Shown one piece after another: positions 43,645 to 52,224 of a stretch of DNA of 64,000 nt. A program made the position numbers and the translations under genes. This stretch comes from a phage: the sequence record PZ357121.2; one strand, written 5' to 3'. Each line of letters begins with the position of its first letter. Within the stretch, counting starts at the first letter, position 1. Below the pieces are notes generated by a model. The model was not told the DNA's origin. It did not search any database and saw only the letters and a program-made list of their open reading frames with translations.

Positions 43645-45462
43645 TTAGGACATCCATTCTTTACGAAGTTCTGAATCATCACCCAACAACATTTCAAAGA
43701 GTTCTTTCCAATTTTCAGGAAGTTTAACTACGTCGTACACAGGATTCTGAATCATTTCACGATATTCTGACTTTTCAAGGGAGCCCAATCCCTTGATGTA
43801 TCGAATACTATGCTTAGGCAGTGTATCTTTAACTTCTTCATACTCAGCTACAGTATAAAACCATTTTTGAGTTTTGCCAATTTGTGCAATAATTACAGGC
43901 GTTTTAACAAAGCGAATACGTCCTTGTTCGAACAATTCGGGCCAATTACTAAAGAAAGCAAGCAAAGCCGGATAAATACTTCCAAGACCATCATGATCGG
44001 CATCGGTCATAATTGCAATATTACGATAGTTCGTATTCTCTGCCTTTTCACCAAGAATAAGACCTGTGATAGCACAGATATCAAAGAGCTCTTTGTTCTT
44101 CATCATATCAGCATATGACATACCCCAGCTATTCATCACCTTACCACGTAATGGGAATCCACCGTGTAGTTCACGGTCACGAACATCAATGAGATAACCA
44201 ATTGCCGAATCACCTTCTGTTAAAAACAATGTCGTATCTGCATCTTTACCACATTGGTTAGCTTTAATATGCTTATGAACCTTAGCTTTAGTTGCCTTTT
44301 TAGCTGCTTTAGTTTCTGCAGCCTTTTCTGCTGCCAATTTACGAGCTAATGCTGCTTCAACAATAGGCATAATCAAGGCTTCGTTTTTAAGAAGTGCCTG
44401 AGCAATTTTCTTAGCATCTAATTGGATATGATTACGAATATCGCCATACGTTGACGTTAAACGTTCTTTAGTCTGAGAATCAAAACGCATGTTGCTCATG
44501 TCTCTAATAAACATCAACATTGTGAGACATTCTTTAACACGAGCTTTAGTGACTTCAATACCCTTATATTTCTTTTTAATGCCGGGCAAAAGATGTTCGC
44601 AGATATCATCCATTACACATTCAACATGATGACCACCATTTTTAGTATGGATGTTATTCACATAAGTTAAATGACGGAAGCCATCTGGTGATGTTGTGAA
44701 TGCTATAGAGACTTTATCATTTTCTTGAATGATGTTATCTTCGCCAAATTGTTTAGCAAATCGTTTAAAATTACCATCAACCTTTTTACCATTAAATGTG
44801 AACTTGATATCAGGATAAACGACTGCCAATGTTTGAAGACGGTCTAAAGTAATATCTAAATAAATTTGAGATAAATTATGCTCTTCAAATGAAGAGAAAT
44901 CAGGAGTGAAGATTACTTTAGTGCCTTTACCTTTAGATTTCTTAGAAGACCACGATTTGTTTTCCATTCCGTTTGAACAGTTAACAGTGATTTCATTTTC
45001 GCCATCTGACGTTATGCCTGTAAACAACGTAGAGAAGATATTAGTTAAACTACTCCCGACGCCGTTCATACCACCAGTCTTGCGTTCAGAGTCATCACCA
45101 AAGTTACCGCCGGCCTTTGGAATAGTCCAGGCTGCTACAGGCCCAGGAATTTGTTCACCTGTTTGGTCGGTAACTAAACCTTGAGGAATACCACGTCCGT
45201 TATCTTCCACCGAAACTTGATTATTTTTAATTTGCACATCAATTTTATTTGCAAACTTAAATGATGTACGAATAGCTTCATCAACCGAGTTGTCAATAAT
45301 CTCATCGATTAATTTAACCAGACCAGGAACATATTCAACTTGTTGATATTTACCAAACAAAAAACGCTCGTGGGCTTCTTTGGCCGAAGAACCAATATAC
45401 ATGCCACTACGTTTCTTAATATGTTCTACATCTGACAATACCTTAATTTCATTTTTAATCAT
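43645..45462 (-). CDS. 39: DNA topoisomerase II large subunit, fused gp39 + gp60 equivalent
   Basis: 605 aa continuous ORF with GyrB-like ATPase and Toprim regions; the length corresponds to T4 gp39 plus gp60 in one polypeptide. Confidence 0.9.
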   Translation of the reverse strand: MIKNEIKVLSDVEHIKKRSGMYIGSSAKEAHERFLFGKYQQVEYVPGLVKLIDEIIDNSVDEAIRTSFKFANKIDVQIKNNQVSVEDNGRGIPQGLVTDQTGEQIPGPVAAWTIPKAGGNFGDDSERKTGGMNGVGSSLTNIFSTLFTGITSDGENEITVNCSNGMENKSWSSKKSKGKGTKVIFTPDFSSFEEHNLSQIYLDITLDRLQTLAVVYPDIKFTFNGKKVDGNFKRFAKQFGEDNIIQENDKVSIAFTTSPDGFRHLTYVNNIHTKNGGHHVECVMDDICEHLLPGIKKKYKGIEVTKARVKECLTMLMFIRDMSNMRFDSQTKERLTSTYGDIRNHIQLDAKKIAQALLKNEALIMPIVEAALARKLAAEKAAETKAAKKATKAKVHKHIKANQCGKDADTTLFLTEGDSAIGYLIDVRDRELHGGFPLRGKVMNSWGMSYADMMKNKELFDICAITGLILGEKAENTNYRNIAIMTDADHDGLGSIYPALLAFFSNWPELFEQGRIRFVKTPVIIAQIGKTQKWFYTVAEYEEVKDTLPKHSIRYIKGLGSLEKSEYREMIQNPVYDVVKLPENWKELFEMLLGDDSELRKEWMS

Positions 45463-45505
45463 GTTGTCTCCTCGTTATGAAGGTATTCTATCATCCGAAA
45501 TCTAA

Positions 45506-45527
45506 AGCAAAAAGGGCCGAAGCCCTT
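45506..45527 (-). terminator. terminator-like hairpin upstream of gene 39
   Basis: aagggccgaagccctt followed on the minus strand by a short T-run; overlaps the stop of ORF 45526-45948. Confidence 0.45.
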
Positions 45528-45948
45528 ATTTAAATTTAATTTTCTGAAGTGCATCAATTGCAGCCAAACGCCCTTGTTCACTTTTAACTGTAATGACCAC
45601 ATCGCCTGATACGATCACCGAACCATCAACAAATTCTATAGAGCCTTTTTTGAAATCGACAGCTGTATCTGGTTCCGGAACTTCTTCAAAGAATTTAAAT
45701 TCTGCACCATAAAGCAGAATATCACCTTGCATACTAATGATTGTACGCCCAGGTCCATCGGTTTCAGCGGCAATCATTGAAACACCGTAACCAATCATCT
45801 CTTCTACAATAAAATCTCTTGATAATAAAACTGTATGCAGAGTAGTGTTAAGACGTTTACCAGTTGTATTAAGAATTCTCAAGAAATTATCTTCTTGACC
45901 TTTGATAATACGATATTTCTTACCAACTTCAAAACCTTTAAAAGCCAT
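45526..45948 (-). CDS. hypothetical protein
   Basis: 140-aa ORF. Confidence 0.5.
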   Translation of the reverse strand: MAFKGFEVGKKYRIIKGQEDNFLRILNTTGKRLNTTLHTVLLSRDFIVEEMIGYGVSMIAAETDGPGRTIISMQGDILLYGAEFKFFEEVPEPDTAVDFKKGSIEFVDGSVIVSGDVVITVKSEQGRLAAIDALQKIKFK

Positions 45949-45950
45949 AA

Positions 45951-46130
45951 TTAACCCTTCTTAAGTAAGTCGTAAAAACCACCGTTCACATGTTTAGGAG
46001 CAGAAACCCGACGAGTAGACAGACGATGACATTCAGGGCAAACATCGTTTTCTCGTTCAGAAATTCTTTTAATTTTTTCATATTCATGACCACAATCTTC
46101 AGATTGGCATTTATAGTCGTATAACGGCAT
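45951..46130 (-). CDS. zinc-ribbon protein (FmdB-like CxxC...CxxC), 59 aa, absent from the ORF track
   Basis: Minus ORF MPLYDYKCQSEDCGHEYEKIKRISERENDVCPECHRLSTRRVSAP...; two CxxC pairs about 22 residues apart. Confidence 0.5.
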   Translation of the reverse strand: MPLYDYKCQSEDCGHEYEKIKRISERENDVCPECHRLSTRRVSAPKHVNGGFYDLLKKG

Positions 46131-46132
46131 TA

Positions 46133-46561
46133 TTATTCCTTAAAATGTGCTTTCAACATTTGATACAAAGACCATGCCTGGTCATTATTTTCGATAGTAA
46201 TCGTCATCACAGGAAATTCAGACAATTCGCCAAGTTCACCAGAATCTTGCTCTTCAGACGCTTGATATGGATTTTCCACTTCATCAAAAAACTCTGCTTC
46301 GTTCGTGGAGAGCCAGATAAAGTTTTCATCAAGGATATCACCGCCTGTGGCGTATCCAACAGTGCCAGTAGATGTCACAATTTTAGTAGGACGTCCAAGA
46401 TGGTCAACATCTAATACTTTAAACGGTTCCATGCCAAGACGTCGTGCATAAATCCCATTATCAGTGTGGTCTTTAATAAACTCTTCTTGGGCACGTTTAT
46501 CTATAAATTGATACCATGAGTTAACGCGGAATTTATTAGCCATTAGTAAGTTTCCTTCCAA
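46133..46561 (-). CDS. hypothetical protein
   Basis: 142-aa ORF; likely true start at the ATG overlapping the upstream stop (46543). Confidence 0.5.
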
Positions 46562-46815
46562 TAAGTTGTACCATTTTCAGTGATTTCACGGAAGATACCA
46601 TAGATAGGCATTTTGTCACCGAGTTTTTCATAAACGTAAACCACTTCGGTGTAGCATAAAAATTCAGTCCAGTTTTTCTGTACAACAACTAAATCAGGAT
46701 TAAACAGAACATCTTCAAACTCATCGATGTTTGAATCAGTGGTTACGTTTTTAATGATTTGACGTTTCATAATATTCTCCTCTTGTTTTGATAGGTCTAT
46801 AGTATCATAGGCCAT
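46543..46815 (-). CDS. hypothetical protein
   Basis: 90-aa ORF downstream of an early promoter. Confidence 0.5.
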
Positions 46816-46827
46816 AGTTGTTGTACA

Positions 46828-47409
46828 TCATTTTAGCAAAATAAAATCAACTTGTTCTGCCAATGAACGTCTAAACATTAATTGACAACTTCCGAGGATG
46901 AAATCAGGTGCTTCATAGACCGCGATGTAGTATCCTTTAGCTTTCAAAAGTTCAACATCCACCTGGTCATCAAACCATGCATAAACCGCGTCAACACTTT
47001 CAAATCCAAAATAGAACCCTTGGGCCCAATCTTCACTCAATTCAAATGTGTGCTCAATTCTATAGTATCTTAAGATATTTTGTTCAAGGAGTTTGTCTTC
47101 ATTTACTGTAGGACGATTAGGGACATTATAGTTGTCACCGTGATGGTAGAAGTTACCTGAGATTATTCCATGTTTATCAAGGAACTCCCATGTTTCTTCA
47201 GAGTTGTCGGTGCCCGACCAACCGTATGGCGAACGAGGTTCTTTATTCCAAGAGGTTTCCCAAATTCTGACGGCTTTACCATCTTCGATAGCAATTCCTG
47301 GTAATGATTCACGTTGAGTACAAAAACTACGTTCTACGCGGTAAACTAACATATTATTCTCCTCTGGTTGATATGGGTATAATATCAAAACCAGAGGAGA
47401 AGTAAACAA
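46828..47409 (-). CDS. hypothetical protein
   Basis: Track ORF overlaps an early promoter; probable ATG at 47352 (MLVYRVERS...) with GAGGAG RBS gives about 174 aa. Confidence 0.5.
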   Translation of the reverse strand: MFTSPLVLILYPYQPEENNMLVYRVERSFCTQRESLPGIAIEDGKAVRIWETSWNKEPRSPYGWSGTDNSEETWEFLDKHGIISGNFYHHGDNYNVPNRPTVNEDKLLEQNILRYYRIEHTFELSEDWAQGFYFGFESVDAVYAWFDDQVDVELLKAKGYYIAVYEAPDFILGSCQLMFRRSLAEQVDFILLK

Positions 47410-47411
47410 CT

Positions 47412-47831
47412 TTATGCGAAAGCAGCTGGGGTATATTTTTTAATTTGGAATTCAGGAACTACCATGAACTGACCAGCGAAAACGATGTTATAAAGCTTAA
47501 CACCATCTTCTACCCAACGGTCGCTGATAAATCCGGCGATTTGCTTAGTTTTCCACGGTGTTCCATCAGTTGCCGCAGCAATAGTGAATTCATGGTCTTT
47601 TTCAACAGAAACTGATCTGCATAGTCCCCATTTGAACGCTTTTTCTTCTGGTTCAATGAACTGGCTTGAGACGTAGCCAATATTACCATTAGCATCACGA
47701 ACTTTAACTTGGTTACGACCAAAAACCGGATCACTCACAGAAATAACTTCAACCAACTTCCCGGCAACTTTAGAGCGAGAAGCAACAGATACATATACGT
47801 AATCACCTGTAGAGAGATTTACAATATTCAT
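47412..47831 (-). CDS. MotB-like protein, paralogue of the adjacent gene
   Basis: 139 aa; shares motifs with ORF 47841-48338 (VSxASRSKxAGKLVEV, KLYNIVFxGxFxVV). Confidence 0.55.
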   Translation of the reverse strand: MNIVNLSTGDYVYVSVASRSKVAGKLVEVISVSDPVFGRNQVKVRDANGNIGYVSSQFIEPEEKAFKWGLCRSVSVEKDHEFTIAAATDGTPWKTKQIAGFISDRWVEDGVKLYNIVFAGQFMVVPEFQIKKYTPAAFA

Positions 47832-47840
47832 AATAATTCC

Positions 47841-48338
47841 TTAAGCTTTATGAGGAGACACATAGCGAGTGATTTCAGATTCTTTAACAACTCGGAAGTC
47901 ACCTAAGAATACGATATTGTATAACTTTTCACCATCTTCAACCCATTGGTCACTAATGAAGCCACACATAGTATCAGTTTTGCTTGGATAACCGTATTCG
48001 TCGATGTAATCAAATTCTTTATCGGTTATAAATTCAACGCCTTTGCAAAGAGCCCATTTGAACTGTGTAGTAGGCTCAACGATATCGCTTGAAGCAAAGT
48101 GTGCAGGTGCAACTTCTTCGCTTGAAGCAAATTGGACTCGTATATGTTTTTCCAGGAATTTAGGACTTACGTAAGCATACTGGGCATCTTGTCCGCCAAA
48201 ACTGGGCATGATTCGAACTTTAACTTCTTTAATACGTCCCATGCCATTTGTGCGAAGTCCGACAACTTCAACCAGACGACCTGCGGCTTTAGACCGGGAT
48301 GCAGTTGATACACGCTTAATTTCACCAATAGTAATCAT
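47841..48338 (-). CDS. motB: MotB (modifier of transcription)
   Basis: 165 aa (T4 MotB 162 aa), N-terminus MITIGEIKRVS...; directly upstream of dexA as in T4. Confidence 0.65.
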   Translation of the reverse strand: MITIGEIKRVSTASRSKAAGRLVEVVGLRTNGMGRIKEVKVRIMPSFGGQDAQYAYVSPKFLEKHIRVQFASSEEVAPAHFASSDIVEPTTQFKWALCKGVEFITDKEFDYIDEYGYPSKTDTMCGFISDQWVEDGEKLYNIVFLGDFRVVKESEITRYVSPHKA

Positions 48339-48404
48339 AATTTTTTCTCTCTTTGTTTAAGTTGAATTCATTATACTCCATCCATCCTTGGATGTAAACT
48401 GATT

Positions 48405-49082
48405 TTATCGCTGTTTTACACTTAACGGGTCAGGATTCTCAGGGACATCTTCAAGGCCAAGCGCATAACGCTGAGCATATTTTAACATCAAAATATCTTT
48501 AGCACAATCATGAATACTATCATGGGCAACGAATCCTTTTAGCGTACCCATCGGTAATGGACACATACTTAATCCTCGTGTCAACGAGTAAGCTTCGATT
48601 GCCGTACGAATATCGCGTTGAGCCCAGAATTTAACCGGTTCTAATTTATCAGTATCAATCTCTGGTTCAAGAACACCTTCATCACGATAGAGGTCACGAA
48701 TCAAATCGACCAAGATCGGGAAGTCAAAGCTCATACCACGGCACCACATCTGTGATTTCCATTGGTCAACTTTATTAGCTCGGCAATAGTCTAAAAAGAT
48801 TTTAATGCCTTCAAGCGTAGTGACGTCGTCTTCAGACGGAGCCAAGTTTTTACGTGCTTCAGCCGATTGTTCTTTCCACCATTTCATAGTGGATTTAGCG
48901 AAAACTCGCTTCCCTTTCTGAGAAGCTAAATTAAATTTAATTCGCTTACCTCGTTGAACAAGTTCTTCAAATGATTCAACAACTTCAGGGTCGGAATTAT
49001 ATGCAATAACCGCAAGGTCAATAACAGCCGCTTTTGATGTATTGCCGAATGTTTCAAAATCTATAATAACATCAGTGCTCAT
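48405..49082 (-). CDS. dexA: exonuclease A
   Basis: 225 aa (T4 DexA 227 aa), DnaQ-like exonuclease in the T4 position. Confidence 0.8.
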   Translation of the reverse strand: MSTDVIIDFETFGNTSKAAVIDLAVIAYNSDPEVVESFEELVQRGKRIKFNLASQKGKRVFAKSTMKWWKEQSAEARKNLAPSEDDVTTLEGIKIFLDYCRANKVDQWKSQMWCRGMSFDFPILVDLIRDLYRDEGVLEPEIDTDKLEPVKFWAQRDIRTAIEAYSLTRGLSMCPLPMGTLKGFVAHDSIHDCAKDILMLKYAQRYALGLEDVPENPDPLSVKQR

Positions 49083-49091
49083 AATTTTCTC

Positions 49092-50405
49092 TCAAATAAA
49101 ATGGACGTCAAACCGACCACGAGTTGTGCCGACATACAATAACTGTTTAGCTAATTCTGAATCGGCGTAATGGATACACGGTGTATAAACAAAGGCCGTG
49201 TCAACAGACATACCCTGGGCCTTATGGAAGGTCGATACTGGTAGTGCCTTCACCTTAGTGAACATACGTTTAGCATCCCAGAATTCGCTCCATGGGGCTT
49301 TACCACCTTTATTCCAAAATTTGTATGTTTCTGCGGTCTTAGCCAAAAACAAATTGAATTTATAAAGCTCTTCTTCAGAAGAAATAACCTTTATATCTTC
49401 GCGGATGTATTCTTCATCATCCCCATATGTTTCTACTGTAAGATTCCAGTATCGTATCATATATTCGCCTGAAACACCACGTGCTTTAACGAATGTAGAC
49501 GTTTCTACAGCATCTCGAATACGAACGAATTGACCGTTATTGAAAAGCATTTCGGTCATATTTTTACCATCTAGCTTATATGTCTTAGTAAATGGCTCTT
49601 GTAGAACAATGACTTCGTCTTTAATAAATGGTTTTTCTGTTTCAAGAAGTTTTCGGCGAATAATTGAATTTAACTTGTTCACCGACTTATTTGTGAATGC
49701 CATCATTCGATTTTCGAAAAGGTCTTCAGGAGTTTTAACGACGTTAAAATAGTTCATCATATACGATTTAAGGTCTGTATATCCGTGAACACCATGTCCA
49801 TCAACTACTTTATCATAAATCCATTTGCCATTACGAATATCAGTCGCAACATCAATAATCGGTGCATTGCTACGTTTAACTTCTGTAAGGTTGCATTGCA
49901 CGAAGTCTTTGTGGGTGAAGAAAGGACTTAGATACGCAGTTGATTCACCTGGGTCTACCGGACGAATCTGACATCGGTCGCCGATTCCAATTACTGTACA
50001 CCATTTAGGGATACTAGCTAACATTATTTTAAACAGAGAACGGTCGCACATTGACGCTTCATCAAATAACAGTACACGGCACAAGGCTAAGTCAGGAACC
50101 TTTTTCTGTTCAAACAATACGTTTTCTTCGTATGTAGTTGGGTTGATTTTAAGAATGCTATGAATAGTCGATGCTTCTTGACCCGCAAGTTTGCTTAGAA
50201 CCTTTTTAGCAGCATGTGTAGGGGCTGCTAAAATAATACCTGATTCTCCGGAAGAAATAAGGGCTTCAACGATGAATCTAGTAAGGGTTGTTTTACCTGT
50301 ACCAGCAGGCCCATTAATAGTTACGTGATGTTTCTTTTCTTTAATAGCGTTCATAACAACGTTGAAGGCGTTTTTCTGACCTTCAGTCAAATCATCAAAT
50401 GTCAT
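49092..50405 (-). CDS. dda: Dda DNA helicase (SF1B)
   Basis: 437 aa, Walker A GPAGTGKTT, high similarity to T4 Dda over full length. Confidence 0.95.
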   Translation of the reverse strand: MTFDDLTEGQKNAFNVVMNAIKEKKHHVTINGPAGTGKTTLTRFIVEALISSGESGIILAAPTHAAKKVLSKLAGQEASTIHSILKINPTTYEENVLFEQKKVPDLALCRVLLFDEASMCDRSLFKIMLASIPKWCTVIGIGDRCQIRPVDPGESTAYLSPFFTHKDFVQCNLTEVKRSNAPIIDVATDIRNGKWIYDKVVDGHGVHGYTDLKSYMMNYFNVVKTPEDLFENRMMAFTNKSVNKLNSIIRRKLLETEKPFIKDEVIVLQEPFTKTYKLDGKNMTEMLFNNGQFVRIRDAVETSTFVKARGVSGEYMIRYWNLTVETYGDDEEYIREDIKVISSEEELYKFNLFLAKTAETYKFWNKGGKAPWSEFWDAKRMFTKVKALPVSTFHKAQGMSVDTAFVYTPCIHYADSELAKQLLYVGTTRGRFDVHFI

Positions 50406-50713
50406 CGTAAAGTCCCTGCAATTGGAATACTAACAATACGGCCTGTATCCAGGATTCGTTGATACAATTTTTGCGTCTCCGCATCTAGTTTAATGTGTTT
50501 CATTTCAAGCTTATTAAACCAGAACTTACGCGGAGTTTCGACCATTCTTAGAACTCCCATTTTTAAATCTGTTTTATACTGTGTTTTCAAAGTATCGAAA
50601 ACTTTATCTGCAATATCCTTTCTAAAAAATACTGCAGGACGATGCTCATCAAGTGGAACCGGGACAGTAAATCCTTCCATATCTCGATAAACTATTGCAT
50701 ATACATAAACCAT
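50402..50713 (-). CDS. hypothetical protein (dda.1 position)
   Basis: 103-aa ORF with 4-nt overlap onto dda. Confidence 0.5.
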   Translation of the reverse strand: MVYVYAIVYRDMEGFTVPVPLDEHRPAVFFRKDIADKVFDTLKTQYKTDLKMGVLRMVETPRKFWFNKLEMKHIKLDAETQKLYQRILDTGRIVSIPIAGTLR

Positions 50714-50715
50714 AA

Positions 50716-51462
50716 TTAACCTTTAATCAGTTGGAATAATGATGCGCTAAGTGGTAAGCCACGTTTCAATTTTAATTTACCAATGAAACCAATCTTTTCA
50801 AAACGTTGCAGACCTTGGATAACTTTATCATATGTATCGAAAAGCGATTCAGCGTCAGTTAATTTAGTTTTAGTTTTCCAGTCAGAGCCTTTAAGAAGAA
50901 CGTTGAGTTTAGTAAGTTCATGGCCTTCTGCTTGATGTGAGCCATTAATGCGTGCTTTCAAAGCAACAATTCTAAGTTTAGATTCGTTAGATAAAGGTTG
51001 ATTTTTCATCATGTTCGCCATATGCTTAACACGATTTTCACGTTTTGCTCGGATTTTTAAAATAGTGCCATAAACCTTTTTAATTTGGGCCCATTTCTTC
51101 TCGTCGAGATTAAGTTTCTCTACTTTACGGACAGAAGGATTAGCGATACGTCTTGCAATGGCATCACGTTTCTCAATAAGTTCTTCTAATGTTAAATCAG
51201 AACGAGCCGTGTTATATTTTTTCTTAACTGGGATAACATTACCTTTAATGTAGCCGATATCGTTATTAAAACGTTCTAAGGATAATTTCTCACCTTCAAC
51301 AGAGTTATTGAAAGATTCACCTGAGTAAGCGCAGACCTTTTGATCAAGAATGTTTTTAAGGTAATTAAAGTCTAAGTTAAAATCCTTAGAGCGTCTCTTC
51401 GCAGAAGCTCTGGTGTGGTCAAGACGACGATTGATTTTGTTAATTTTATTATTTGATAACAT
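50716..51462 (-). CDS. srd: Srd-like protein, called by position and size
   Basis: 248-aa basic protein between dda.1 and mod, matching the T4 srd locus. Confidence 0.5.
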   Translation of the reverse strand: MLSNNKINKINRRLDHTRASAKRRSKDFNLDFNYLKNILDQKVCAYSGESFNNSVEGEKLSLERFNNDIGYIKGNVIPVKKKYNTARSDLTLEELIEKRDAIARRIANPSVRKVEKLNLDEKKWAQIKKVYGTILKIRAKRENRVKHMANMMKNQPLSNESKLRIVALKARINGSHQAEGHELTKLNVLLKGSDWKTKTKLTDAESLFDTYDKVIQGLQRFEKIGFIGKLKLKRGLPLSASLFQLIKG

Positions 51463-51615
51463 AATATTTTCCTCTGTCTTACGGACGTTAAGGTCATTTA
51501 GCTGATAAGCTTATAATATCATGCCCTCAGGTAGTGTACACTCTTTTTTCATAAAATGCTTTAATTTTTTATGTGTTATAATGGTTCTGAATTCCATCCG
51601 GTTATTCCAATCCAG

Positions 51616-52224
51616 TCAGTAACCAACAATAGACAGATTCCAGATTGTATAACGTCCATCTTGAATAATAGAATCTACACGCAGTGTAGTCCCTATAGGG
51701 AGCATAAATTCACATTCGTCAGATATAAGTCTAGCATTAGACCGTCTTGTCGCTTCAGGGAAAGCTCCATTGAACTCACAAGATGGCGCAGCCAGAATCA
51801 TGTTAAGCATATGTTCACGGAAGTTGAAAGCAAATGGTGCATCTTTGATGCAGAACATAGTAAATGTTCCGTAAAAATTATACGAAGCAAAGTTACGTGC
51901 TACACCGAACACTGGGCTGAAGCTCATTACTCTGTCAAATTTAATAATACTACCAATGCCTTTATCATCGAGTGTGGCCATAGTTTTCTTAGAGATTCCA
52001 CGATACATTGTCTCAGGAACAGAAGACGTCCAATTTCTACGAACGATTGAACTTAACTCCTGTTGAATACAGTCTGGCTTGTTTTCCATACATTGCCATA
52101 GTACACTTTGTTCAATGTCGCTGAATTGACTATCAATTTCGTACTGCAATACATCTTGATATTCGGGGTTTTGAGCACGACGAACCATTTCTTCAATTTC
52201 ACACTCATTATACGGCATAAACAT
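51616..52224 (-). CDS. ADP-ribosyltransferase ModA/ModB family
   Basis: 202 aa with R-S-E-type elements (YRGIS, SFSP, ECEF) in the T4 modA/modB position; only one copy seen here. Confidence 0.6.
   Translation of the reverse strand: MFMPYNECEIEEMVRRAQNPEYQDVLQYEIDSQFSDIEQSVLWQCMENKPDCIQQELSSIVRRNWTSSVPETMYRGISKKTMATLDDKGIGSIIKFDRVMSFSPVFGVARNFASYNFYGTFTMFCIKDAPFAFNFREHMLNMILAAPSCEFNGAFPEATRRSNARLISDECEFMLPIGTTLRVDSIIQDGRYTIWNLSIVGY

What the first reader, a model, noticed from the sequence alone, without database searches (positions are those of the whole stretch)
47412..48338. Tandem duplication of a MotB-like gene
Two adjacent ORFs (139 and 165 aa) share several motifs (VSxASRSKxAGKLVEV near the N-terminus, KLYNIVFxGxFxVV near the C-terminus) but differ in their middle regions, suggesting duplication and divergence of a DNA-binding transcription modifier.
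Basis: seen in the sequence. Interest (0 to 1): 0.45.

Follow-up and report, generated by a model that had tools for sequence, protein, structure and literature searches.

The report
Two adjacent MotB genes in phage

Summary
Confirmed and ordinary. The two minus-strand ORFs (165 aa, 47841-48338; 139 aa, 47412-47831) are true paralogs: 41% identity, E 5e-30, and both pass Pfam PF17613 (motB). The window comes from a Mosigvirus (RB69-like) T-even phage.

The 165-aa gene is the ortholog of T4 motB (45% identity). The 139-aa gene, here called motB', is a separate conserved lineage. It has no ~26-residue disordered linker and a shorter N-terminal hairpin.

The duplication is old. The copies share 55% nucleotide identity and synonymous sites are saturated. 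Both copies are under purifying selection (dN/dS 0.13-0.25).

The pair occurs in about 200 sequenced phages, including some Tequatroviruses (RB10, teqhad). RB69's second copy is annotated 'RB69ORF010c similar to motB' and is mentioned by Patterson-West et al. 2021.

Extra details found here:
- motB.1 is missing from this window through recombination between repeated early promoters.
- The MotB linker carries a polymorphic 33-nt duplication.
- Metagenome contigs hold single hybrid genes (MotB N-terminal domain fused to MotB' C-terminal domain).

Function is inferred from T4 MotB, which binds DNA non-specifically and remodels H-NS-DNA complexes. What the second copy adds is untested.

The parts
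48370..48398 (-). Predicted early sigma-70-type promoter (TTTACA-17 nt-TATAAT) in the 66-nt dexA-motB spacer. It is a single hybrid copy of a promoter repeat that flanks motB.1 in relatives.
   Evidence: The promoter scan scores 11 of 12. The 29-nt repeat occurs once in the window, with none in 100 shuffles. The alignment with GADS24, FL18 and NHEP36 shows two copies flanking motB.1 in GADS24/FL18 and one chimeric copy here. Promoter activity is inferred, not shown.
47841..48338 (-). motB ortholog, 165 aa: N-terminal KOW/SH3-like beta domain (~1-63), disordered linker (~64-91), C-terminal beta domain (~92-165).
48072..48134 (-). Two 30-nt copies of a direct repeat spaced 33 nt apart, inside the linker-coding part of motB. 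They encode the repeated (Q/H)FASS(E/D) segment, and the copy number differs between strains.
   Evidence: the repeat finder family D2, 77% identity, spacing 33. Tandem Repeats Finder missed it. MotB is 165 aa here and in GADS24, 154 aa in NHEP36 and FL18, and 151 aa in RB69.
47832..47840 (-). 9-nt spacer between the two genes. On the coding strand it reads TAA GGAATTATT ATG, so a Shine-Dalgarno-like AAGGA overlaps the motB stop codon.
   Evidence: Read directly from the sequence. The same 9-nt spacing is annotated in GADS24, FL18, RB10 and teqhad; NHEP36 has a 12-nt spacer. No promoter-like or terminator-like site was found on this strand between the genes. Co-transcription and coupling are inferred.
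47412..47831 (-). motB' (second MotB paralog), 139 aa: the same two domains, no flexible linker, and a 6-residue shorter hairpin in the N-terminal domain.
   Evidence: PF17613 at 1.5e-20 and PHROG 1671 at 1.5e-50. 36% identity to T4 MotB and 41% to the neighbouring copy. AF2 model: pLDDT 86.6, pTM 0.73, no disordered segment. 208 phage records hold a copy at 80% identity or more. dN/dS 0.07-0.28. Monophyletic in 100% of bootstraps.
48405..49082 (-). Context: dexA exonuclease A, immediately upstream in the direction of transcription.
   Evidence: PF16473 at 4.1e-20 and PHROG 255 at 9e-82; annotated as exonuclease A in relatives.
46828..47352 (-). Context: motB.2 homolog (174 aa from the ATG at 47352), unrelated in sequence to MotB. 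It has its own promoter-like site at 47379-47406.
   Evidence: PHROG 1106 at 9.8e-47. 34% identity to T4 MotB.2. Promoter-like TTTACT-16 nt-TATTAT. Relatives annotate the 174-aa form.
46543..46815 (-). Context: cef (modifier of suppressor tRNAs), the downstream boundary of the variable motB block.
   Evidence: PF24050 at 3.9e-34 and PHROG 1354.

Best explanation
The locus holds an ancient, stably inherited pair of MotB paralogs in the early 'dexA-cef' host-takeover region of a Mosigvirus (RB69-like) T-even phage. The upstream 165-aa gene is the ortholog of T4 motB. The downstream 139-aa gene (motB') is a second lineage of the same two-domain protein that has lost the flexible inter-domain linker.

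Most likely, both genes are transcribed together right after infection from the strong sigma-70-type early promoter in the dexA-motB spacer, and motB' is translated 9 nt behind motB. By homology with T4 MotB, both proteins should coat DNA non-specifically through their small beta-barrel domains and disturb H-NS/StpA-DNA complexes, which makes the host a better factory.

Both copies are kept under purifying selection and differ in linker, charge and N-terminal-domain loop, so the best-supported reading is subfunctionalisation rather than redundancy: two DNA-coating proteins with different geometry or partners.

Shown here: homology, family membership, architecture of the predicted folds, conservation, selection, distribution, synteny. 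Inferred: promoter use, co-expression, DNA binding, H-NS effect, division of labour.
For: - Homology and family.
- Orthology of the 165-aa copy to T4 MotB (45%, E 2e-41) against 36% for the 139-aa copy.
- Mosigvirus origin and synteny (dda-dexA-[motB.1]-motB-motB'-motB.2-cef): compared with T4.
- Old duplication: 55% nucleotide identity, longest shared word 13 nt, pS 0.71.
- Purifying selection on both copies at similar depth: window against RB10 gives dS 0.54 with dN/dS 0.25 for motB, and dS 0.59 with dN/dS 0.14 for motB'.
- Distribution: 208 records with motB' at 80% or more and 202 with Mosigvirus-type motB at 60% or more, out of about 775 MotB-bearing phage records. The same pair sits in Tequatrovirus RB10 and teqhad.
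- Promoter.
- Function of T4 MotB (DNA binding, toxicity, 2-fold burst effect, altered H-NS footprints, 75 host genes up-regulated): PMC6070864 and PMC7827196.
Against: - No experiment exists on either Mosigvirus protein.
- T4 MotB is strongly basic (pI 9.23, which its authors linked to nucleic-acid binding). The window proteins are near neutral: pI 6.3 for MotB (basic N-terminal domain at 10.4, acidic C-terminal domain at 4.7) and 7.8 for MotB'. Equally tight non-specific DNA binding therefore cannot be assumed.
- The promoter is a consensus match only, and the scan found no more promoter-like sites in the region than in shuffles (14 against 13.0).
- Single-gene hybrids and single-copy phages such as T4 show that one copy can suffice.
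- Subfunctionalisation is an inference from conservation, not from any functional difference seen.
Confidence: 0.75

Rival explanations
1. The second copy did not arise by duplication in place. A divergent MotB homolog from another T-even lineage was inserted next to the resident motB by recombination in this hyperplastic region.
For: In the N-terminal-domain tree all MotB orthologs (T4, Dhakavirus, Gaprivervirus, Mosigvirus types) group together and exclude MotB' in 92% of bootstraps. The region demonstrably shuffles cassettes: the motB.1 presence/absence between promoter repeats, motB.2 on the other side of the pair compared with T4, and mosaic MotB proteins such as P0127 and Shf125875.
Against: No phage was found in which a MotB'-type gene is the only or the founding MotB. 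MotB' always sits directly behind a Mosigvirus-type motB with the same short spacer. The C-terminal-domain tree joins MotB' with Mosigvirus MotB in 50% of bootstraps, which fits duplication in place followed by fast change of the N-terminal domain.
Confidence: 0.2
2. motB' is a redundant or decaying spare copy with no function of its own (dosage only, or on its way to loss).
For: T4 and most Tequatroviruses, Dhakaviruses and Gapriverviruses manage with one motB. Hybrid single genes exist. The motB region is dispensable in T4 under laboratory conditions (PMC6070864).
Against: The ORF is intact at a constant length of 139 aa in about 200 phage records, at 83-99% identity. dN/dS is 0.13-0.14 across dS of about 0.6. 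The AF2 model is confident (pLDDT 86.6). Its derived features (no linker, shorter hairpin) are fixed across the clade.
Confidence: 0.1
3. MotB' acts as a partner or modulator of MotB, for example as a hetero-oligomer on DNA or by tempering MotB toxicity, rather than as an independent DNA-coating protein.
For: The two genes are tightly linked and probably translationally coupled (9-nt spacer) and are inherited and transferred together (similar dS for both genes between Mosigvirus and RB10). T4 MotB is highly toxic and binds cooperatively (PMC6070864, PMC7827196).
Against: Hybrids that keep only one N-terminal and one C-terminal domain are viable enough to appear in several samples.
Confidence: 0.15

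Closest known systems
Bacteriophage T4 MotB (gene motB, 162 aa; Pfam PF17613)
   Same: Same family, same two-domain layout (KOW/SH3-like N-terminal domain with the SRSKxAG motif; C-terminal beta domain with the WVEDG-KLYN-VF motif), and the same early-region neighbourhood between dexA and cef. The 165-aa gene is its ortholog (45% identity).
   Different: T4 has one motB and no motB'. T4 MotB is basic (pI 9.23), while the window proteins have pI 6.3 and 7.8. The linker sequence differs. All functional data come from T4 only.
RB69 motB (NP_861701) plus RB69ORF010c 'similar to motB' (NP_861700), and equivalent pairs in other Mosigviruses and in RB51/Sf24/RB10-type Tequatroviruses
   Same: The same tandem pair in the same order and orientation. 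RB69 MotB (P0054) is 81% identical to the window's 165-aa protein, and MotB' homologs are 83-94% identical. Patterson-West et al. 2021 state that RB69 has two copies of motB and list NP_861700 in their supplement.
   Different: According to that paper RB69 also has motB.1 and a 29-aa fragment; this window lacks motB.1. The window's MotB carries an extra 11-residue linker repeat and more (165 against 151 aa).
T4 MotB.1 (Category 2-4 proteins of Patterson-West 2021; LSm-like N-terminal domain, Kim et al. 2025)
   Same: It shares the C-terminal domain core (WVTDQWIEDGVELLNVVH...). The window proteins match it at E about 1e-8 to 1e-10 over about 30-60 residues and touch PHROG 2333. It is likewise a neighbour of motB.
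   Different: Its N-terminal domain is different (LSm-like, no SRSK motif). Neither window protein belongs to it, and the motB.1 gene itself is absent here although present in close relatives (GADS24, FL18).
PeSL-mediated modular shuffling in T4-type phages (Arbiol et al. 2010; Comeau et al. 2014)
   Same: A gene (motB.1) is flanked by two copies of an early-promoter motif in some genomes and replaced by a single chimeric motif in others. This is the topology described for RB49/phi1 ORF192. The promoter fits the TTTACW-N17-TAYWAT consensus given for the PST/T4 pair.
   Different: No separate terminator stem-loop was found. There is only a 6-bp hairpin inside the promoter spacer, no better than shuffles (z -1.27). 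This concerns the neighbour motB.1, not the origin of the motB/motB' pair.

Membership tests
MotB family (Pfam PF17613 / PHROG 1671) | Sequence match to the family profile above the curated threshold | tested here: met
   165 aa: 128.5 bits, E 2.8e-37, profile positions 2-157 of 162. 139 aa: 74.1 bits, E 1.5e-20, in two stretches. The cut-off is 25 bits. PHROG 1671: 6.7e-64 and 1.5e-50.
MotB family (Pfam PF17613 / PHROG 1671) | Two-domain architecture: N-terminal KOW/SH3-like beta domain plus a C-terminal five-stranded beta domain (predicted OB-fold in PMC7827196) | tested here: met
MotB family (Pfam PF17613 / PHROG 1671) | Location in the early dda-dexA...cef-goF-39 block of Tevenvirinae | tested here: met
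   Window order on the minus strand: dda, dexA, motB, motB', motB.2 homolog, cef, goF-like. The same block occurs in T4, Dhakavirus, RB10 and teqhad.
MotB family (Pfam PF17613 / PHROG 1671) | Early expression from a host-type (sigma-70) early promoter | tested here: inconclusive
   There is a TTTACA-17-TATAAT match of 11/12 at 48370-48398. It is a consensus match only, and the region as a whole has no excess of promoter-like sites over shuffles.
MotB family (Pfam PF17613 / PHROG 1671) | Tight non-specific DNA binding, co-purification with H-NS/StpA, toxicity in E. coli | not testable with these tools
   These properties are known only for T4 MotB (PMC6070864, PMC7827196). The lower pI of the window proteins (6.3 and 7.8 against 9.23) is a caution, not a test.
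MotB.1 subfamily (MotB-type C-terminal domain with LSm-like N-terminal domain) | N-terminal domain of MotB.1 type (no SRSK/KOW motif) joined to the WVTDQWIEDGVELLNVVH-type C-terminal domain | tested here: not met
   Both window proteins carry the MotB-type N-terminal domain (VSxASRSKxAGxLVEV) and align to T4 MotB.1 only over about 30-70 C-terminal residues. The true MotB.1 ortholog, 164 aa in GADS24, is absent from the window.
Tandem gene duplication (paralog pair) | Adjacent, same orientation, homologous over the full length | tested here: met
   9-nt spacer, both on the minus strand. The BLASTP alignment covers residues 6-133 of 139 and 2-159 of 165, E 5e-30.
Tandem gene duplication (paralog pair) | Origin by duplication in place rather than insertion of a foreign homolog | tested here: inconclusive
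   Domain-wise NJ bootstraps. N-terminal domain: MotB orthologs exclude MotB' in 92%. C-terminal domain: MotB' joins Mosigvirus MotB in 50%. There is no flanking repeat signature, and synonymous sites are saturated.
PeSL-type cassette shuffling (applies to the motB.1 presence/absence next to the pair) | Gene flanked by two early-promoter motifs in one genome, single chimeric motif in the genome that lacks it | tested here: met
   Alignment A1: GADS24 and FL18 have the repeat on both sides of motB.1. The window and NHEP36 have one copy whose -35 side matches the dexA-proximal repeat and whose spacer, -10 and downstream leader match the motB-proximal repeat.
PeSL-type cassette shuffling (applies to the motB.1 presence/absence next to the pair) | Stem-loop terminator as part of the repeated motif | tested here: inconclusive
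   Only a 6-bp hairpin (CAUCCA/UGGAUG) lies within the promoter spacer. Folding energy z -1.27, with 22 of 200 shuffles as good. No terminator-like site was called there.

The most novel reading that the evidence does not exclude
MotB' is not a spare MotB but a functionally distinct, linker-less nucleoid-binding protein. It would divide labour with MotB, for example one copy acting on host H-NS/StpA-coated DNA and the other on the phage's own modified DNA, or the two forming a mixed coat. The hybrids and single-copy states seen in nature would then be repeated collapses of this two-protein system. This would make the RB69 group a natural experiment for separating the roles of the MotB N-terminal domain, linker and C-terminal domain.
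Probability: 0.3. Interest if true: 0.4.

Novelty: already known. Interest (0 to 1): 0.2.

Why it matters
MotB is one of the few T4 early 'host-takeover' proteins with a proposed mechanism, which is interference with H-NS-organised DNA. Its domain functions remain unknown. A conserved natural pair that differs chiefly in linker, charge and one N-terminal-domain loop, together with natural domain-swap hybrids, gives ready-made material for structure-function work. It also shows how T-even hyperplastic regions gain, lose and fuse genes. As a discovery it adds little: the two copies are already annotated in RB69 and many relatives and are mentioned in the literature.

Tried and rejected
1. T4 MotB as a collapsed MotB::MotB' hybrid. 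A blastn hit joined the 3' end of T4 motB to the 3' end of RB10 motB' (78% over 223 nt). This was rejected: over the last 39 residues T4 MotB matches Dhakavirus/Gaprivervirus MotB at 28-29/39 but MotB' only at 22-23/39, and the DNA hit is carried by the shared downstream flank.
2. Recent gene conversion between the copies. Rejected: the longest identical DNA word is 13 nt, and only 35 of 64 degenerate identical residues use the same codon.
3. Hybrids as assembly artefacts. Unlikely, because the paralogs share no long exact words and P0029 was found on 5 contigs, the 3 shown coming from three different sequencing runs. P0028 and P0031 rest on one contig each.
4. PDB sequence search gave no relative with a solved structure; the best hit was E 0.56 to a ribosomal protein.
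5. Tandem Repeats Finder found nothing in the locus. The linker duplication came only from the repeat finder.
6. Rfam found no RNA family in 44000-52000.
7. The first single-sequence homolog search reached only close relatives. The exhaustive HMM search showed the family is tiny: 34 clusters at 50% identity among 1.84 billion proteins.
9. The two PHROG 622 (GoF-like) genes nearby were tested as another paralog pair. BLASTP gave only E 0.025 over 20 residues, so this was not pursued.

Full report
**Observation.** Two complete ORFs lie on the minus strand at 47841-48338 (165 aa) and 47412-47831 (139 aa), 9 nt apart. BLASTP aligns them almost end to end: 65/159 identical (41%), E 5e-30, with two gap blocks in the middle. 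Both proteins pass Pfam's curated threshold for PF17613 'motB' (128.5 and 74.1 bits against 25) and match PHROG 1671 'MotB-like transcriptional regulator'. tblastn with MotB, MotB.1 and MotB.2 proteins finds only these two MotB-type loci in the 64-kb window.

**Where the window comes from.** The 2.7-kb stretch is 95-98% identical to many Mosigvirus (RB69-like) coliphages such as GADS24, JN02, FL18 and HX01. On the minus strand the order is:
- dda helicase (49092-50405)
- dexA exonuclease (48405-49082)
- the 165-aa gene
- the 139-aa gene
- a 174-aa homolog of T4 motB.2 (46828-47352)
- cef (46543-46815)
- a goF-like gene

T4 has dexA-motB.2-motB.1-motB-cef, so the block is the same early, dispensable region with its genes rearranged.

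**Which copy is which.** The 165-aa protein is the ortholog of T4 MotB (45% identity, E 2e-41). The 139-aa protein is more distant from T4 MotB (36%) and from its neighbour (41%). I call it MotB'. A 164-aa gene that GADS24 and FL18 carry between dexA and motB is the ortholog of T4 MotB.1 (47%). It shares only the C-terminal core with MotB and is absent from this window.

**Age and selection.**
- The paralogs share 55% nucleotide identity over aligned codons.
- Their longest common DNA word is 13 nt.
- Only 35 of 64 identical, degenerate residues use the same codon.
- Synonymous differences are saturated (pS 0.71).

There is therefore no recent duplication or gene conversion. Between this window and Tequatrovirus RB10, motB has dS 0.54 with dN/dS 0.25, and motB' has dS 0.59 with dN/dS 0.14. 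Within Mosigviruses dN/dS is 0.07-0.28. Both genes are kept by purifying selection and appear to have travelled together.

**Distribution.**
- tblastn against 50,697 phage records finds 208 records with a MotB' copy at 80% identity or more. None fall between 60 and 80%, and 570 fall below 60%; the latter are hits to ordinary MotB.
- Mosigvirus-type MotB at 60% or more is in 202 records.
- The pair also occurs, in the T4-like order dexA-motB.2-motB.1-motB-motB'-ORF89-cef, in Tequatroviruses RB10 (species RB3) and teqhad.
- T4, Dhakaviruses and Klebsiella phage F48 show one MotB.
- The whole family is tiny: 34 clusters at 50% identity among 1.84 billion proteins.

**Phylogeny.** Domain-wise NJ trees with 100 bootstraps give the following.
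- MotB' is monophyletic in 100% of replicates.
- In the N-terminal domain, all MotB orthologs group to the exclusion of MotB' in 92%.
- In the C-terminal domain, MotB' joins Mosigvirus MotB in only 50%.

So the split is old. Whether it was a duplication in place followed by rapid change of the N-terminal domain, or an older event with losses or transfer, is not resolved.

**Structure.** The AF2 models were built with 38-41 family sequences.
- 165-aa protein: a beta-rich N-terminal domain (about 1-63), a disordered linker (66-89, pLDDT below 50) and a five-stranded C-terminal domain (pLDDT about 90); mean pLDDT 77.5.
- 139-aa protein: the same two domains with no disordered segment; pLDDT 86.6, pTM 0.73.

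**Expression signals.** The 66-nt dexA-motB spacer holds TTTACA-17 nt-TATAAT (11/12; 48370-48398, minus strand). This fits the T4-type early-promoter consensus quoted by Comeau et al.. No promoter-like or terminator-like site lies between motB and motB' on that strand. The spacer reads TAA-GGAATTATT-ATG, so a Shine-Dalgarno-like AAGGA overlaps the motB stop. Co-transcription and coupled translation are therefore likely but inferred. A second promoter-like site (47379-47406) precedes the motB.2 homolog.

**Likely function.** T4 MotB is an abundant early protein that:
- binds modified and unmodified DNA tightly and non-specifically;
- is toxic to E. coli;
- doubles burst size;
- changes H-NS footprints at proV;
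- up-regulates 75 host genes when over-expressed, about a third of them H-NS-repressed.

It does not measurably change the T4 transcriptome (PMC6070864, PMC7827196). By homology the two window proteins should do the same kind of thing. One caution applies. T4 MotB has pI 9.23, whereas the window's MotB has pI 6.3 (N-terminal domain 10.4, C-terminal domain 4.7) and MotB' has pI 7.8. Because both copies are conserved yet differ in linker, charge and one loop, division of labour is the best reading. It is an inference.

**Dynamics of the locus.**
1. *motB.1 presence/absence.* In GADS24 and FL18 the early-promoter motif TTTACAxCCAAGGATGGxTGGAGTATAAT occurs on both sides of motB.1. In this window and NHEP36 there is a single copy. 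Its -35 side matches the dexA-proximal repeat, and its spacer, -10 and leader match the motB-proximal repeat (unique in the window). This is the topology of PeSL-mediated cassette excision or insertion described for RB49/phi1 (PMC2839356). No convincing stem-loop accompanies it here.
2. *Linker duplication.* The linker-coding part of motB holds a 33-nt-spaced direct duplication (48072-48134). This explains the length polymorphism: 165 aa here and in GADS24, 154 aa in NHEP36 and FL18, 151 aa in RB69.
3. *Natural hybrids.* Metagenome assemblies contain single hybrid genes.
   - P0028 joins the Mosigvirus MotB N-terminal domain and linker to the MotB' C-terminal domain. It sits alone between motB.1 and cef.
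   - P0029 joins a T4-type N-terminal domain to a MotB' C-terminal domain. It was found on five contigs; the three shown come from three different sequencing runs.
   - P0031 switches at the WVEDG motif.

   These look like collapses of the pair by recombination between the paralogs.

**What is already known.** The second copy is annotated in RB69 as 'RB69ORF010c similar to motB' (NP_861700) and is listed in the supplement of Patterson-West et al. 2021 together with its RB51, Sf24, Shf125875 and SHSML-52-1 equivalents. [quoted passage not shown] Current GenBank records label both genes 'MotB-like transcriptional regulator'.

**Verdict.** The finding is a correct reading of a known arrangement. 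Novelty: already known. Interest is low (0.2). The modest residual value lies in the unexplored function of the linker-less copy and in the natural hybrids as tools for dissecting MotB.

Noticed in passing
window 48339-48404 (promoter repeat 48370-48398, minus strand); L001 3310-4040; L003 3280-4010: motB.1 is missing from this window. Close relatives carry it between two copies of a 29-nt early-promoter repeat, and the window has one hybrid copy. This is a PeSL-like cassette loss or gain.
   Followed up: yes
window 48072-48101 and 48105-48134: A direct duplication spaced 33 nt apart inside the MotB linker encodes the repeated (Q/H)FASS(E/D) segment. Copy number varies between strains, giving MotB of 165, 154 or 151 aa.
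   Followed up: partly
L010 1373-1894; L011 4001-4492; L012 2199-2690; L013 37-528; L014 555-1073: Metagenome contigs carry single hybrid genes (MotB N-terminal domain fused to MotB' C-terminal domain, or a switch at the WVEDG motif) in place of the pair. This suggests repeated collapse by recombination between the paralogs.
   Followed up: partly
window 46828-47409: The mechanical ORF list gives 193 aa from a TTG, which runs through a promoter-like site (47379-47406). The likely start is the ATG at 47352 (174 aa), as annotated in relatives. This motB.2 homolog lies downstream of the motB pair here but upstream of motB.1 in T4.
   Followed up: partly
L001 2842-3402; L003 2842-3369; L002 2845-3351: GenBank MotB annotations in GADS24, FL18 and NHEP36 (186, 175 and 168 aa) start upstream of the real ATG and read through the early promoter (MLYIQGWMEYNEFNLNKERK...).
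   Followed up: partly
window 46133-46561 and 45526-45948: Two genes that both match PHROG 622 (GoF-like) flank the small zinc-ribbon gene (45951-46130). Their direct similarity is marginal (BLASTP E 0.025), so any common origin is remote.
   Followed up: partly
L004 3487-3656 (T4 motB-cef gap): The T4 intergenic gap contains an 18-codon remnant (89% identity) of the 89-aa ORF that follows motB' in RB10 and teqhad. T4 therefore appears to have lost sequence here.
   Followed up: partly
window 47412-48338 (proteins): The charge differs sharply from T4 MotB (pI 9.23). The window's MotB has pI 6.3, with a basic N-terminal domain (10.4) and an acidic C-terminal domain (4.7). MotB' has pI 7.8, and the RB10 copies are both about 5.4.
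   Followed up: no
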